From: Octopus vulgaris
Taxonomy: Eukaryota
Reading direction: 5' to 3'
DNA: 64,000 nucleotides
NCBI GenBank assembly: GCA_951406725.2
Contig: OX597821.1
Location: forward strand, 15,996,001 to 16,060,000
The notes beneath the pieces were generated by a model. The model was given only the letters and a program-made list of their open reading frames with translations. It ran no database searches and was not told the origin of the DNA. The translations under genes and the position numbers were made by a program. Each line of letters begins with the position of its first letter. The first letter of the stretch is position 1. Positions 160-50,382 of the stretch are shown piece after piece.

Positions 160-600
160 TTCACCTGCATTTCTGCCCCTGTGGAAATCAGGGATTGATT
201 TTCTATCTCCATTCCTCTGCACCTAAGGGCCGCAATTCGTCACTTATTTTCATCTCAAACCTACCCTATACACTTTCACACACACACACCACCTTTCACT
301 TACCCTCATCATCCATACAACTGTGCAGTACCGAACGCATCGCCCACGAACAAACATATACGCTCACACACATCTTCACATACACATGCGCGTTTGTCTC
401 TCTCCCCGCTCGCTCTCCCTCTCCCTGTCTCTCTCCCACTCTCTATTCCTCCAGTTTCGTTTTCTTCTCATCCCTTTCTGTCGAAATACGTAGGCTCGAA
501 ACGTCAAAGACTTTTCGCTTGTTCTCGATAATTTACCTGTTTGTTTTTCCCTCACTCGTCTCTGACTTTCGTTTTCTGTACATTGCCATGCGGGCAACAT
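160..600 (+). mobile_element. Degenerate Penelope-like element 3' end (GIY-YIG C-terminal remnant + pseudo-LTR with hammerhead-like motif)
   Basis: ORF 69..689 contains NQGLIFYLHSSAPKGRNS, resembling the EQxLIFxLxTLxPxGLN C-terminus of PLE GIY-YIG domains. It is followed by a C/T-rich tract and a hammerhead-like motif at 474-509 that recurs at 8282-8319. Confidence 0.55.
474..509 (+). ncRNA. Minimal type I hammerhead-like motif, U6 core variant (degenerate stem II)
   Basis: CTTT-CTGTCGA-A-ATAC-gtag-GCTC-GAAA-CG-TC-AAAG: stem I CTTT/AAAG, palindromic ACGT stem III. Confidence 0.5.
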
Positions 601-1956: not shown

Positions 1957-2056
1957 TACTAAGCAATAAAGGGTTTGGCAACGAATTGCCTTACCACATA
2001 CCGAATTTAGAAATAGCAGTCAAAGAGTTATAGCTATTTCTTCTACTAAAAAGGGA
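1957..2056 (+). repeat. Terminal fragment of the hammerhead-bearing element found at 45.7-46.6 kb
   Basis: tactaagcaataaagggtt...gttatagctatttcttctact is the reverse complement of 46519-46609; flanked by (TA)n on both sides. Confidence 0.8.
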
Positions 2057-2582: not shown

Positions 2583-2819
2583 GTAACTGTATACACATCT
2601 AGGTATATGCATATAAAGTGTAATATTGTCGCAGCAATTAAACGCTGTTAGTATTTGTCTGAATTTTAATTAAATACGCCATACATATTCGGCGAATTCG
2701 CCAATTACGTACATGCTACAAGGACATATTGTTCATTCAGCCGATCGGTGCATATGAACCTATAAACACACACACACATATATATGTATACATATACTTA
2801 TGTATATACATATACATCT

Positions 2820-2860
<41 letters not shown>

Positions 2861-2877
2861 CATATAATTATGTATAT

Positions 2878-3980
2878 ACGCAAATAACAAGCGGTGTCCC
2901 ACAGGGCACTGTCTTGGGGCCACTGATGTTCATAGTGGCCCTTTCAGACATGCCTTCAGTTGCTACGATGACCACCCTTGCTAGCTATGCAGATGACACA
3001 AAAGTCTCCCACGCAATACAAAACCCTGAAAATATTGCGCATCTGCAACATGAGCTGGACACAATATACAGGTGGGCTGAGGACAACAACATGCAGTTTA
3101 ATGCAGGTAAGTTCCAGGCCCTGCGCTACTGGCACACAAAGGTAAATGACGTGAAGACTGGATACACTGGCCCAGGAAGAATTGCAATCCCTGAGTCAAA
3201 ATCAGTGCGTGACCTGGGCATTTACATGAGCAATGATGCATCTTTCCAAATGCATATTGCTAATCTGGTGATAAAATGCAGACGGCTAGCTGGATGGATT
3301 CTCCGAACTTTCAGAACAAGAGAGAAGGAGACACTGATGGTCCTATGGAAAACATTCTTCCTCAGCCGCTTGGACTACTGCTCCCAACTGTGGTCACCAC
3401 ACAATATAAAACTAACAGCAGAACTCGAAGCAATTCAAAGAAGCTACACAAAGAAGATCGTCTCAATGCAAAATATCAGCTACTGGGAAAGACTGAAAGT
3501 ATTAAACCTCTTCTCCCTAGAGCGAAGGCGAGAGAGATATGCGGTGATATACATTTGGAAAATCTTGGAGGGTCTTGTCCCAAACTTTGGCATTCAAAGT
3601 TACCCAAACCGTAGAACAGGGCGCCACTGCATGGTACCAAAAATTCCAACATCACCATCCAAATACAGGTCCAGATACTGCAACAGCTTGGGTTTCAGAG
3701 GACCACAGCTCTTTAACATCCTCCCTAAATGCCTGAGAGACTTACATGGTGTGGATGTGGGTTTCTTTAAAACTAAACTGGATCTCTTCTTGTTGGGAGT
3801 CCCAGATGAACCTACCTCACGACAGGAGACACGGATGCGGGCAGCAGCATCGAACTCCCTTGTTGATCAAGTGCCACGTATCAGAGGTGGATTCACAGAC
3901 TAGTGTAGCTCATTCAGCGGTGGTGCCCCAGCATGGCCGCGGCCTTCGGGCTAAAACATTTTTAAGGATTTAAGGATTTA
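2878..3980 (+). mobile_element. LINE copy A (CR1-group non-LTR retrotransposon), 5'-truncated; open ORF2 C-terminal half + 3' UTR + (TTTAAGGA)n tail
   Basis: RT motifs [37 protein letters not shown]; stop at 3901-3903; 3' double hairpin and short tandem tail. Confidence 0.93.
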
Positions 3981-4018
3981 TACATATACATCTACATATA
4001 TATATATATATATATATA

Positions 4019-4358
4019 TAGTGTAGCTCATTCAGCAGTGGTGCCCCAACATGGCTGCGGCCTAAAACATTTTTAAGGATTTAAGGATTTATATATGTGT
4101 AGATGTATATACATAAGTATATTTATATATATATATACATATATATGTAGATGTATATGTATATACATAATTATATGTATATATATATATATATATATAC
4201 ATATAATTATGTATATACATATACATCTACATATATATGTATATATATATATAAATATACTTATGTATATACATCTACACATATATAAATCCTTAAATCC
4301 TTAAAAATGTTTTAGGCCGCAGCCATGTTGGGGCACCACCGCTGAATGAGCTACACTA
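4019..4358. repeat. 340-bp near-perfect palindrome (LINE 3' tail + TA-derived satellite, mirrored about 4188/4189)
   Basis: ORF-track entries 4073..4282(-) and 4095..4304(+) give identical peptides; I see one mismatch between arms (cagcAgtgg vs cagcGgtgg). Confidence 0.92.
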
Positions 4359-6876
4359 GTTTGTGAATCCACCTCTGATACGTGGCACTTGATCAACAAG
4401 GGAGTTCGATGCTGCTGCCCGCATCCGTGTCTCCTGTCGTGAGGTAGGTTCATCTGGGACTCCCAACAAGAAGAGATCCAGTTTAGTTTTAAAGAAACCC
4501 ACATCCACACCATGTAAGTCTCTCAGGCATTTAGGGAGGATGTTAAAGAGCTGTGGTCCTCTGAAACCCAAGCTGTTGCAGTATCTGGACCTGTATTTTG
4601 ATGGTGATGTTGGAATCCTTGGCACCACGCAGCGGCGCCTCGTTCTGCGGTTGGAGTAACTTTGAATGCCAAAGTTTGGGACAAGACCTTCCAGGATTTT
4701 CCAGATGTATATCACTGCATATCTCTCCCCTCCGCTCTAGGGAGAAGAGGTTTAATACCTTCAGTCTTTCCCAGTAGATGACATTTTGCATTGAGACGAT
4801 TTTCTTTGTGTAGCTTCTCTGAGTTGCTTCGAGTTCTGCTGTTTGTTTTATATTGTGTGGTGACCAAAGTTGGGAGCAGTAGTCCAAGCGGCTGAGGACA
4901 AATGTTTTCCATAGGACCATCAGTGCCTCCTTCTCTCTTGTTCTGAAAGTTCGGAGAATCCATCCAGCTAGCCGTCTGCATTTTATCACCAGATTAGCAA
5001 TATGCATTTGGAAAGATGCATCATTGCTCATGTAAATGCCCAGGTCACGCACTGATTTTGACTCAGGGATTGCAATTCTTCCTGGGCCAGTGTATCCAGT
5101 CTTCACGTCATTTACCTTTGTGTGCCAGTAGCGCAGGGCCTGGAACTTACCTGCATTAAACTGCATGTTGCTGTCCTCAGCCCACCTGTATATTGTGTCC
5201 AGCTCATGTTGCAGATGCGCAATATTTTCAGGGTTTTGTATTGCGTGGGAGACTTTTGTGTCATCTGCATAGCTAGCAAGGGTGGTCATCGTAGCAACTG
5301 AAGGCATGTCTGAAAGGGCCACTATGAACATCAGTGGCCCCAAGACAGTGCCCTGTGGGACACCGCTTGTTATTTGCGTTTCCCTGGAGGTGGCTCCATT
5401 GCTCACAACTGCCTGTTTTCTGTCTTTTAGGAAGTTGTGCAGCCACTCTCCAAGTTTCCCGCCTATGCCGAGACCACGCAGTTTGTGACAGATCATACCA
5501 TGGTCGACTTTATCAAAGGCTTTTGCAAAGTCAAGATATATTACATCCACATTTGAGCCATTTAGTAGCTGTTTCAACACCCAGTCATAGTGTTGCAGGA
5601 GCTGTGTTAGGCAGCCTCTACCTGGTCGAAATCCATGCTGGGTGTCAGACAGTAAGTCATTTTCTTCAAGGAACATGATTAGTTTCTTACGGACTATTCG
5701 TTCCATGACTTTGCTGATGTGTGAGGTGAGAGAGATAGGCCTATAATTTTTAGCATCTGCTCTGCTACCTCCCTTACGGATAGGGCATATTACCCCCTCT
5801 TTCAGTTTGACTGGGAGCTTACCACTTGCAAGAAAGCTCTGAAAAAGAAGCTGTAGCGGTTTTGCCAGGGCTCGTTTGCACGATTTGAGAAGGATCGCTG
5901 GGAATCCATCAGGTCCAGCAGCTGAGTTTGTGTCAATCTCATCAATGGCTAGTGTGATATCATCTTCTTCGATGTTGATGTACTCAATTTTTGTCTCTTT
6001 GGCCGCTGGTAAAGTGGCAAAGAATTCTTCTGGGTTGTTTACTTGCCTGTGTCCTAGAGGTGTAGTGAACACACTTTGGAACTGTTCGTTCAGTATTTCA
6101 CTTATCCTCGTGGGATTTCATGTGAGAGAGCCATCTTTTTGGAAGAGAGGTCCTATTCTCTGATGCACTGTGGCTGTCTCTTTGGCAAACTTAAAGAAAG
6201 CTTTAGGGTTTGATTTTATATTTTCTATTACCCAAGCTTCTTTATCTGCTCTCTCCTTTCCATGGGACTGATGTAGACTTTTCTCAGTTTCCATTAGCAT
6301 TCTTTCGAGCCGAGACTTCTCACCACTTTTGGTGTGCTTGCTCAGGCGGTTTGCAATTCTTGTCCGTCGTCTCATAAGAATCCTCCTTTCTCTAGGGATC
6401 CTGTTTTTGTTCTTGTGTGTGCTGGCCCTGCACATTGGGACATATTTGTCACATATGGCTTGTATTATGGACATGAAGTGTTTGTGTTTAATGCTTATGT
6501 CCGGTGTGGAGAGACATTCAGGCCAATCCTGTTTGAGGATCTCTTTCTCAATCGACTTCCAGTTGGCTTTATGAAAGTTTAAGTTGGAGAGATGGTGGGT
6601 GCTTCGTATAGGCTATGTGTCTGCGGGGGCTTTTGTTCCATACATAGACAGCTCTATTATGTTGTGATCCGAGATCATTGTCGGCATCACATTAACATTA
6701 TGGATAATATCCATATTGTTTGTGAAGCAGAGATCCAGTATATTATCTGCCCTTGTTGGTTGCAGAACTATTTGCTCCATGAAAGAGGCATTTGTAAGAT
6801 GAAGCAGGGAATCCACCTGTGCCTGATGATGGTGTGTCATCCCTGGGAGCATCTGCCCCCCAGGCCATTCCACATT
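4286..6876 (-). mobile_element. LINE copy B (same subfamily as A), 5'-truncated inside the APE endonuclease; ORF2 pseudogene
   Basis: [16 protein letters not shown] (APE C-terminus), NFHKANW linker, AAGPDG, NYRPISLTS, QHGFR, LDFAKAFDKVDH, PQGTVLGP, YADD. ORFs 6613..6912, 6118..6474 and 4543..6072 are one frame broken by stops at 6613-6615 and 6118-6120; 2-nt deletion frameshift near 4725. Confidence 0.95.
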
Positions 6877-45693: not shown

Positions 45694-45737
<44 letters not shown>

Positions 45738-45874
45738 TAATACTAAGCAATACAGTTATAGCTATTTCTTCTACTAAAAAGGGAGATCTCAGTAAAAACA
45801 CAGCAATTGGAAGGCAGACACAAACAGGTAAGAGAGAATGAATTGACGGCAATCTATCATACAATTTTAAGTTA

Positions 45875-45974
45875 TCTACGGACGCACGTTTCGAAATCAA
45901 GTTTTTAGGAAAGCATAAGAATTAAATATTAAATAATTCTACCTTACCCAAACTTCTTTTCTCTTCAGCGTAGA
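45875..45974 (-). ncRNA. Type I hammerhead ribozyme (inverted copy)
   Basis: Reverse complement of 46310-46409. Confidence 0.8.
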
Positions 45975-46309
45975 ATACTATAATCATAAATGAATATATA
46001 TTGAATTTTGAGATACTAGAAGGCACCAACTCAACTCAATATCAGAGCGAGCTAGAATCCGCAACTAGTATCACCAAATTCAAAGTGTGAATGAAAAGAT
46101 TGTGTCACCAGCCCCTTCCCACCCGCGTGTAGCCAAAGCAAGATGCGGTGGTCATCTACTGAGATAAAATATGGTCATCCGTAATAATGAAGGGTGAAAT
46201 TTGAATTTGGTGATACTAGTTGCGGATTCTAGCTCGCTCTGATACTGAGTTGAGTTGGTGCCTTCTAGTATCTCAAAATTCAATATATAATCATTTATGA
46301 TTATAGTAT

Positions 46310-46409
46310 TCTACGCTGAAGAGAAAAGAAGTTTGGGTAAGGTAGAATTATTTAATATTTAATTCTTATGCTTTCCTAAAAACTTGATTTCGAAACGTGC
46401 GTCCGTAGA
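46310..46409 (+). ncRNA. Type I hammerhead ribozyme with canonical core and extended stem II
   Basis: TCTACG-CTGAAGA-GAAA..(~60 nt)..TTTC-GAAAC-gtgc-GTC-CGTAGA; 6-bp stem I; predicted cleavage after C46403. Confidence 0.8.
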
Positions 46410-46629
46410 TAACTTAAAATTGTATGATAGATTGCCGTCAATTCATTCTCTCTTACCTGTTTGTGTCTGCCTTCCAATTGCTGTGTTTTTACTGAGATCT
46501 CCCGAAGACTTTTAATTGAGTAGAAGAAATAGCTATAACTCTTTGACTGCTATTTCTAAATTCGGTCTGTGGTAAGGCAATTCGTTGCTAAACCCTTTAT
46601 TGCTTAGTATATAACTCTTTGACTAAATA

Positions 46630-48100
<1,471 letters not shown>

Positions 48101-49182
48101 ATTGATTGATTGATTGATTGATTCTAGTTTCAGCTTATGAGCTGTGGCCATGCTGGGGCACCGCCATTTGGTGTTGCTACTTGGTTTCACTTCATGGAGG
48201 CTTTCTAGCAACTGCTATTTGGTGCATGAGAGAGTTCGATGCAGCTGCCCTCATCTGCCCCTCCTGCCGTGAAGTTGGTTCATCTGGGACACCTGACAGG
48301 AAGAGATCCAGCTCCATTTTAAAGACATCTGTATCCACCCCATGCAGGTCTCTCAGGTTCTTCGGGAGGATATTGAAGAGCTGTGGGCCTCGGAAGCCCA
48401 GGCTATCACAGAATCTTGTCCTACATCTTGATGGCAAGTTTGGAGTCCTAGGCACCACCCAGTGGCGCCCAGTTCTGGCATTTGCGTAACTCTCGATGCC
48501 AAAGTTCAGGACACTTCCCTCCAGGATCTTCCAGATGTATATTATGGCATATCTTTCCCGCCTACGCTCCAGGGAATATAATTTTAATCTCTTGAGTCTT
48601 TCCCAGTAGCTTACATTCTGCATAGAGGCTATCATCTTCGTGTAGATTCGTTGGATCGCCTCCAGTTCTGTGATCAACTTGACACTGGATGGTGACCATA
48701 GCTGAGAGCAATAGTCAAAGTGACTTAGGACAAGTGTCTTCCAGAGGACCATCATGGTTTCTTGTTCTCTTGTTCTAAAGGTTCTAAGAATCCATCCAGC
48801 CAGCCGTCTGCATTTCAATGTCAGTTTAGCAACATGTACATGAAAGGTCGCGTCATCACTCATGTGAATACCCAGGTCACGCACTGATTGTGCCTCTGGG
48901 ATTGCAATCCCTCCGAGTCCAGTGTATTCCTTGGGTATTGCATTCAGTTTTGCATGCTGATAGTATAAAGCTTGAAACTTTTCAGCATTGAACTGCATGC
49001 TATTCTTTTCAGCCCACTTGTATATTTCGTCCAGCTCATATTGCAGGTGCTGAGTGTCTTCAGGGTTCTGTATTGCCTGTGAAACTTTTGTATCATCTGC
49101 ATAACTTGTGATCGTGGCTCTCCGCGTGGCTGAGGGCATGTCTGAGAGGGCCATTATGAACAGTAGTGGTCCCAAAACAGTG
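48101..49182 (-). mobile_element. LINE copy C (second CR1-group subfamily), 5'-truncated, (AATC)n tail
   Basis: ORF 48192..49175: [25 protein letters not shown]; clearly homologous to but diverged from A/B. Confidence 0.93.
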
Positions 49183-49212
49183 TATGTATGTATGTATGTA
49201 TATATATATATG

Positions 49213-49251
<39 letters not shown>

Positions 49252-49933
49252 GTATATATATATGTGTATATATATATGTATATATATATGTATATATATA
49301 TGTGTATATATATATATATGTATATATATATGTGTATATATATATATGTTTATATATGTGTATATATATATGTATATATATGTGTATATATATATGTGTA
49401 TATATATATGTATATATATATGTGTATATATATATATGTATATATATATGTGTATATATATATATATGTATATATATATGTGTATATATATATATGTATA
49501 TATATATGTGTATATATATATGTATATATATATGTGTATATATATATGTGTATATATATGTGTGTATAGATATGTGTATATATATATGTGTATATATATG
49601 TGTATATATATGTGTATATATATATGTGTATATATATATGTGTATATATATATGTATATATATATGAGTATATATATATGTATATATATGTGTATATATA
49701 TATGTATATATATATGTGTATATATATATGTTTATATATATATGTATATATATATATGTATGTATATATATATGTATATATATATATGTATATATATATA
49801 TATGTGTATATATATATATATGTGTGTATATATATATGTATATATATGTGTGTATATATATATGTATATATATATGTGTATATATATATGTATATATATA
49901 TGTGTATATATATATGTGTATATATATATATGT
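49183..49933. repeat. (TA)n/TATGTG satellite between LINE copies C and D
   Basis: Direct inspection. Confidence 0.95.
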
Positions 49934-50382
49934 ATATGCCATAATATACATCTGGAAGATCCTGGAGGGAAGTGTCCTGAACTTTGGCATCGAGAGTTAC
50001 GCAAATGCCAGAACTGGGCGCCACTGCGTGGTGCCTAGGACTCCAAACTTGCCATCAAGATGTAGGACAAGATTCTGTGATAGCCTGGGCTTCCGATGCC
50101 CACAGCTCTTCAATATCCTCCCGAAGAACCTGAGAGACCTGCATGGGGTGGATACAGATGTCTTTAAAATGGAGCTGGATCTCTTCCTGTCAGGTGTCCC
50201 AGATGAACCAACTTCACGGCAGGAGGGGCAGATGAGGGCAGCTGCATCGAACTCTCTCATGCACCAAATAGCAGTTGCTAGAAAGCCTCCATGAAGTGAA
50301 ACCAAGTAGCAACACCAAATGGCGGTGCCCCAGCATGGCCACAGCTCATAAGCTGAAACTAGAATCAATCAATCAATCAATC
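49934..50382 (+). mobile_element. LINE copy D, 3' ~450 bp, near-identical inverted duplicate of the end of copy C
   Basis: [12 protein letters not shown]...VARKPP plus 3' hairpins and (AATC)n; only two substitutions seen versus C. Confidence 0.93.

What the first reader, a model, noticed from the sequence alone, without database searches (positions are those of the whole stretch)
45740..46609. Intact pair of hammerhead ribozymes on opposite strands in a 304-bp inverted repeat
Seen: 46310-46409(+) and 45875-45974(-) have a perfect 6-bp stem I, CUGAAGA and GAAA cores, a GUC cleavage triplet, minimal stem III and an unusually long (~69 nt) stem II domain. Transcription in either direction meets one sense ribozyme preceded by its antisense copy, which could sequester it in a long hairpin. 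No RT or GIY-YIG ORF is attached. Established: Penelope-like elements and retrozymes carry type I hammerheads in terminal repeats and often form inverted ends. Inference: a young non-autonomous ribozyme-bearing element targeting (TA)n. Its end also occurs at 1957-2056, and scrambled short copies at 46609-46630 suggest template switching.
Basis: partly seen in the sequence, partly recalled or inferred. Interest (0 to 1): 0.72.

Follow-up and report, generated by a model that had tools for sequence, protein, structure and literature searches.

The report
Retrozyme copy with two head-to-head arms
The mirror-image pair of ribozyme motifs is one scrambled copy of a young 595-base jumping repeat with hundreds of copies in this animal genome, likely written into TA repeats by a Penelope-type enzyme that starts copying at two fixed RNA sites, one for each end of the insertion.

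Summary
In detail: a 304-bp inverted repeat (2 mismatches) with an identical type I hammerhead in each arm. The pair is not a unit of its own. It is one head-to-head insertion of a 595-nt, ORF-less, circularly permuted repeat (436 exact ribozyme 21-mers in G000) that also forms tandem arrays: an animal non-LTR retrozyme. In 59 loci picked only by the 21-mer, all 27 inverted blocks are head-to-head; 78 of 90 3' ends fall in two windows (8% of the unit); 20 of 20 blocks with both ends in a window use one of each; the two arms share a haplotype (17 of 18). Autonomous Hydra- and Neptune-type Penelope elements in this genome show the same footprint. The window copy is an exception (both ends at site 1). 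Stems I and III covary across sister families, and stem III is palindromic (dimer type), so this copy, predicted to be locked by its antisense arm, is likely inactive. The long stem II is shared with Hydra-type ribozymes. No parent sharing sequence was found; cleavage, expression and a circular template are untested. The scan noted this footprint before for other families of this genome.

The parts
45697..45733 (.). Left (TA)n target run
45734..45752 (-). 3' end piece of the left arm (unit about 187-206, site 1), joined to unit 127 across a deletion of about unit 128-186
45754..46200 (-). Left arm: retrozyme unit about 277 to 595 to 127, 3' end pointing outward
45781..46084 (-). Left half of the 304-bp inverted repeat (2 mismatches)
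45875..45974 (-). Type I hammerhead motif; predicted cut between 45881 and 45880
46085..46199 (-). Spacer of the palindrome = 5' part of the left arm that the right arm lacks (unit about 277-391)
46196..46210 (.). Head-to-head junction where the two 5'-truncated arms meet, with short imperfect sequence likeness
46200..46610 (+). Right arm: unit 392 to 595 to 197, ends at site 1
46310..46409 (+). Type I hammerhead motif; 69-nt stem II, self-complementary stem III; predicted cut 46403/46404
46504..46519 (+). Short replacement that resembles unit 232-253 (likely template jump)
46611..46640 (+). Scrambled short copies of unit 121-135 and 197-206
46641..48100 (.). Right (TA)n-rich run, about 1.5 kb (right limit approximate)
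1957..2056 (-). Independent 5'-truncated insertion of the same family (unit 97-197) in (TA)n, no ribozyme

Best explanation
The locus is one head-to-head, two-armed copy of a young 595-nt non-coding hammerhead repeat (a non-LTR retrozyme), likely inserted into (TA)n by the reverse transcriptase and endonuclease of a Penelope-like element acting in trans. Shown: 595-nt period, dispersed tandem and inverted copies, two fixed 3' end sites, one site at each end of inverted copies, one haplotype in both arms, the same footprint in autonomous Penelope-like elements of this genome. Inferred: tandem copies are transcribed and cut by dimeric hammerheads (palindromic stem III) to monomers or circles; the enzyme, probably a Hydra-clade dimer, nicks both strands of (TA)n and primes each strand on the same RNA, at site 1 (unit about 197) and site 2 (about 300), just 3' of conserved helices; the two truncated cDNAs are joined at their far ends. 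The mirror pair of ribozymes is a by-product. This copy is aberrant (two site-1 ends, template jumps) and likely a dead end, because each strand has one ribozyme and that one is predicted to be paired to its antisense copy.
For: Period 595 and permuted copies. 436 exact 21-mers. In 59 loci / 63 blocks: 27 of 27 inverted blocks head-to-head; 78 of 90 3' ends against 5 of 36 outer 5' ends in two windows covering 8% of the unit; TA-rich flank at 81 of 90 3' ends. 20 of 20 blocks with both ends in a window are site 1 + site 2 (binomial p about 1e-6). Arms identical at polymorphic sites in 17 of 18 comparisons (1 of 193 sites differ; 3 of the 18 are one triplicated event) against 20% for different loci. 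In 5 of 20 neither arm is nested in the other, which simple fold-back cannot give. Same short-end/long-end rule in Hydra-2 (11 of 11 mapped inverted pairs among 21 loci, ends near +66/+225), Hydra-1 (4 of 5, +37/+161) and Neptune (1 of 1, +73/+113). 11 of 11 related hammerheads keep 5-6 of 6 stem I pairs with different sequences and a self-complementary stem III; family B has the U3-A8 core swap. 39 of 100 family copies turn the stem III G-U into A-U. 5 of 90 arm 5' ends lie at unit 1-10, just after the cut site (p 0.018). An Anolis Penelope protein cuts and extends both strands, starts at two internal RNA sites and is predicted dimeric (PMC11167929).
Against: The window copy breaks the rule (206 + 197), as do L025 and L030: 3 of 9 such blocks in the query-biased first set. 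7 of 27 inverted blocks have an end outside both windows. No autonomous element shares sequence with the unit: no hit tied to a pLTR by blastn or by a profile of the 3' module, so the mobiliser is inferred from footprint. Family B's core resembles Neptune, not Hydra. Locus-private alleles are shared by all units in 3 cases and sit in one unit in 63, so a single circular template is not shown. Shared haplotypes could also come from two RNAs of one source locus or from later conversion between arms. Common stem II variants weaken the stem. Cleavage and expression are untested; in PMC11167929 ribozyme cleavage was not needed for insertion in vitro.
Confidence: 0.78

Rival explanations
1. The copies are only cut-off terminal repeats (pLTRs) of an autonomous Penelope-like element not yet found; no retrozyme RNA cycle exists.
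For: Footprint identical to autonomous elements. Genome searches score only the best candidates, so a parent may have been missed.
Against: Arrays of up to 4.3 pure 595-nt units with no ORF (L234); longest ATG ORF in the unit 23 aa; no contiguous Penelope ORF at the family loci screened, and three nearby Hydra pieces that were read are separated by TA runs; sister family B also forms pure tandems, of about 555 nt.
Confidence: 0.1
2. Inverted copies arise by fold-back or self-priming of one cDNA or antisense template (the reading of PMC3846280), not by two primings on the RNA.
For: Arms share haplotypes; 15 of 20 pairs are nested and so compatible with fold-back; junction overlaps of 0-6 nt in 19 of 24.
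Against: 5 of 20 pairs are not nested; both outer ends sit at the same RNA sites that single-arm copies use.
Confidence: 0.12
3. The opposite-strand pair is a selected, antisense-regulated ribozyme switch with a function at this locus.
For: Both ribozymes are intact; full sequestration is predicted on both strands.
Against: Intactness follows from youth (private alleles about 0.2% of bases); arm lengths and junctions vary between loci; this copy is scrambled; no gene was seen beside it, only TA runs and LINE remnants.
Confidence: 0.03
4. The palindrome is a long-read or assembly fold-back artefact.
For: No laid contig spans the junction near 46200 (short contigs of a repeat, uninformative).
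Against: Two mismatches, a deletion in one arm and an insertion in the other, 115 nt found in one arm only, and rule-bound ends in 27 other blocks.
Confidence: 0.02

Closest known systems
Metazoan non-LTR retrozymes (PMC7229834: passages and Discussion read; bioRxiv 10.64898/2026.07.22.740005: parts 1-3 of 5 read)
   Same: No ORF, tandem units with one type I hammerhead each, GC 35%, dispersed monomers to multimers, unit length inside the 51-972 bp range of the preprint, co-occurs with Penelope-like elements.
   Different: 69-nt stem II; 43% of blocks inverted; two fixed 3' end sites about 105 nt apart; (TA)n target. 'inverted' and 'microsatellite' have 0 hits in PMC7229834. Circular RNA not shown here. 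No pLTR homologue found, unlike 21 of 57 Xenopus families.
Hydra-clade Penelope-like elements (PMC8557442: section 11 and passages read)
   Same: (TA)n target, canonical hammerhead, head-to-head arms. Two young families in G000: L150 (1091 aa stop to stop; RWR, DKT, CxCx5C, CxxC, CxH) and L276 (899 aa), both with long stem II and an 8-nt palindromic stem III; L276 shares CUGAAGA-GAAA...UUUC-GAAAC with this family.
   Different: No RT or endonuclease; no significant sequence match to their pLTRs; end spacing about 105 nt against 124 and about 157.
Penelope/Poseidon and Neptune tail and inverted pLTR (PMC11167929: parts 1-2 of 4; PMC3846280: passages)
   Same: Two internal start sites, tail at one end only, AT-rich target, head-to-head inversion.
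   Different: Published tails are 30-40 nt (40 nt for Neptune here); this one is about 105 nt and lies in a non-coding repeat.
Opposite-strand hammerhead pairs in Schistosoma Penelope-like elements (PMC4209133: part 1 of 4 and passages)
   Same: Two hammerheads 100-700 bp apart on opposite strands; palindromic stem III; dimer mode; U3-A8 variant.
   Different: Those are minimal hammerheads of truncated elements; these have a full stem I and a long stem II.

Membership tests
Type I hammerhead ribozyme | CUGANGA, GAAA and NUH cores in order with stems I-III | tested here: met
Type I hammerhead ribozyme | Rfam RF00163 gathering score (34 bits) | tested here: not met
   21.2 bits; full-length alignment with 65 nt in place of the 10-nt stem II interior
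Type I hammerhead ribozyme | Covariation of stems and core | tested here: met
   Between families, 11 of 11 motifs keep 5-6 of 6 stem I pairs, U3-A8 swap in family B; none within the family
Type I hammerhead ribozyme | Self-cleavage | not testable with these tools
   Indirect only: 5 of 90 5' ends at the cut site, p 0.018
Non-LTR retrozyme | Tandem units, one type I hammerhead per unit | tested here: met
   Family: 18 of 59 loci, period 595. The window copy has no same-strand pair.
Non-LTR retrozyme | No protein coding, no LTR | tested here: met
   Longest ATG ORF 23 aa; permuted ends
Non-LTR retrozyme | Expressed as monomeric linear and circular RNA | not testable with these tools
   No holder on record as RNA; contigs only
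Non-LTR retrozyme | Sequence kinship to a pLTR of an autonomous Penelope-like element | tested here: inconclusive
   No match in the families sampled; the search was not exhaustive
Penelope-type insertion footprint | 5' truncation, partial tandems, head-to-head inverted copy | tested here: met
Penelope-type insertion footprint | Two internal start sites, tail at one end | tested here: met
   Family 20 of 20; not met by the window copy (206 + 197)
Penelope-type insertion footprint | (TA)n target | tested here: met
   81 of 90 3' flanks
Autonomous Penelope-like element | RT plus GIY-YIG ORF | tested here: not met

The most novel reading that the evidence does not exclude
A Hydra-clade RT dimer loads on one circular retrozyme RNA at two structured sites about 105 nt apart and copies it from both nicked strands of (TA)n at once. 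This would explain the one-ended tail and the head-to-head inversions of all endonuclease-bearing Penelope elements and give genomic evidence for the proposed but unshown step from retrozyme circle to genome.
Probability: 0.4. Interest if true: 0.65.

Novelty: new member of a known kind. Interest (0 to 1): 0.38.

Why it matters
The locus itself is ordinary debris. The family offers a 595-nt, protein-free template with mapped start sites and intact candidate enzymes in the same genome. That makes two open questions directly testable: which enzyme moves animal retrozymes, and how Penelope elements make inverted, one-tailed insertions.

Tried and rejected
Parent search: GIY-YIG Pfam search gave a young two-ORF Neptune-type family with no match to the unit; an old Hydra-type family beside the same stem III 12-mer (L088) is decayed and lacks the 3' module; Hydra-1 and Hydra-2 pLTRs gave no significant profile hit, and module hits in L284, L285, L289 are adjacent retrozyme copies. 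The Hydra ORF next to a family C copy (L272) is a separate insertion. Pfam found no domain in 3 of 3 Hydra ORFs; the clade is assigned by motifs from PMC8557442. RNA: no RNA holder listed; contigs of 4 runs cover the unit, none spans the junction; no evidence either way. Circle test by private alleles was inconclusive (3 against 63). Structure of the 3' module: 95% of cells paired but only 3 of 35 pairs with two-sided change in 8 related sequences, on a structure derived from that alignment: suggestive only. Errors corrected: L102 on the wrong strand; L272 orientation; two family C motifs mis-parsed, redone. Counting notes: site 2 window 288-310 and 288-312, both chosen; BLAST ends include chance TA matches; duplicated events (L212/213, L240/241) were kept. 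Ribozyme conservation in the 100 copies is biased because loci were picked by an exact 21-mer. Paper searches; in the parts read, none counted a one-site-per-end rule; supplements were not read and those of the bioRxiv preprint are closed.

Full report
Observation. The inverted repeat is 45781-46084 against 46200-46503, 304 bp with 2 mismatches. Each arm holds the same type I hammerhead: 6-bp stem I, CUGAAGA, 69-nt stem II domain, GAAA, GUC. Rfam RF00163 aligns to both at 21.2 bits, below its cut-off of 34. The piece at 1957-2056 and the scrambled pieces at 46611-46640 come from the same repeat.

What it is. The window is G000:C8, in a 2.8-Gb genome. The right arm found 1757 candidates, 40 scored, with many full-length matches at 96-97%. 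Two ribozymes in L011 lie 595 nt apart and define the monomer, numbered here from the cut site. An exact ribozyme 21-mer occurs 436 times, the control 0 times. The unit has 35% GC, no ATG ORF over 23 aa, and folds as a circle at z -5.0 against 40 shuffles. The window copy is a minus-strand arm (unit about 277 to 127, deletion, then 187-206) joined head-to-head to a plus-strand arm (392 to 197). The 304-bp repeat is their overlap and the spacer is the rest of the left arm.

Footprint. I took every cluster among the first 100 listed 21-mer hits (59 loci, 63 blocks). All 27 inverted blocks have 3' ends outward. 78 of 90 3' ends lie at unit 184-208 (site 1) or 288-310 (site 2), against 5 of 36 outer 5' ends. 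81 of 90 3' flanks are TA-rich. Of the 27 inverted blocks, 20 have both ends in a site, and all 20 use one of each; single arms end at site 1 in 25, site 2 in 8, elsewhere in 3. Exceptions exist: in the first, query-biased set 3 of 9 blocks are site 1 + site 1, the window copy among them. The two arms carry the same haplotype in 17 of 18 comparisons, against 20% between loci; 5 of 20 pairs are not nested. 18 of 59 loci have same-strand tandem ribozymes, 5 only an opposite-strand pair, 36 one ribozyme.

Ribozyme. Sister families B (about 555-nt tandem), C and D share the 3' module at about 72-85%. Across 9 retrozyme and 2 Hydra-type motifs, stem I keeps 5-6 of 6 pairs through different sequences, family B has the U3-A8 core, and all 11 stem III segments are self-complementary. 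In 39 of 100 family copies a G-U of the dimer helix is A-U. A short palindromic stem III is the known mark of dimer cleavage (PMC4209133, passage). Within the family, stem II variants are not compensatory. In a transcript of the whole window element, all 100 ribozyme bases are predicted paired in the long hairpin on either strand, so this copy is likely silent as a ribozyme. 5 of 90 arm 5' ends fall just after the cut site (p 0.018), a weak sign that family RNA is cut or nicked there.

Mobiliser. G000 holds three young autonomous Penelope-like families in (TA)n: a Neptune type (781-aa RT + GIY-YIG frame; clade by the CX2-5CxxC linker of PMC8557442) and two Hydra types (1091 and 899 aa; clade by motifs in section 11 of that paper). 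All end at two sites, and inverted copies use one of each: Hydra-2 11 of 11, Hydra-1 4 of 5, Neptune 1 of 1. Long stem II, 8-nt palindromic stem III and an end spacing above 100 nt point to Hydra, at about 60%. No pLTR matches the unit in sequence. Both start sites lie just 3' of helices conserved in four families, with little two-sided change.

Mechanism. Shown: the pattern above. Inferred: tandem copies give dimer-cleaved monomers or circles; a Penelope-type dimer cuts both strands of (TA)n and primes each on the same RNA at a different site; the cDNAs join at their truncated ends. This fits the Anolis protein, which extends both strands, starts at two internal sites and is predicted dimeric (PMC11167929). 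A circular template is not shown.

Known and new. Non-LTR retrozymes, their Penelope link, head-to-head inverted ends, a tail at one end, (TA)n targeting and opposite-strand hammerhead pairs are in print (PMC7229834, bioRxiv 10.64898/2026.07.22.740005, PMC8557442, PMC3846280, PMC4209133; parts read are listed under Closest known systems). In the parts read after searches I saw no count of a one-site-per-end rule, and no tail near 100 nt. Earlier AI notes of this scan report the same rule for other families of this genome; my counts were made before I saw them, and they are not independent support.

Verdict. A real feature and a new family of a known kind. The given locus is an aberrant and probably inactive copy. 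Interest 0.38, carried by the testable insertion mechanism.

Noticed in passing
L150:3900-7172 (+); L276:2004-4700 (+): Two young Hydra-clade Penelope families with intact frames (1091 and 899 aa), long-stem-II hammerheads and tails of 124 and about 157 nt, well above the published 30-40 nt. L150 has long Asn-rich inserts. Hydra-2 has over 90 near-identical RT copies.
   Followed up: partly
L065:881-4581 (+): Young Neptune-type element with an upstream 479-aa frame and a minimal hammerhead with a UUGAUAA core; 40-nt tail.
   Followed up: partly
L284:5445-6080: A Hydra-2 arm ending at its short site is joined, with no TA run, head-to-tail to a family D retrozyme copy; nested insertion or a chimeric event, one case.
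   Followed up: no
L084-L086, L247, L271, L285: Sister retrozyme families B (about 555 nt, U3-A8 core), C (long stem II; 2989 candidates) and D share the 3' module and similar end sites.
   Followed up: partly
L075, L096, L100, L103, L104: A further older hammerhead family with a short stem II and the ACGCGCGU stem III, unrelated to the 3' module.
   Followed up: no
unit 175-190 (window 46588-46603) and family C: Site 1 follows AAACCCUUUA (AACCCUAA in family C), which resembles a telomere-template word (recalled); may be chance.
   Followed up: no
window 2758-6612 and 48192-50294: LINE-type RT remnants interleaved with long (TA)n runs.
   Followed up: no
L240, L241 (C1:216.17-216.19 Mb); L212, L213: Identical insertions repeated three and two times within about 10 kb: local segmental duplication after insertion.
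   Followed up: no
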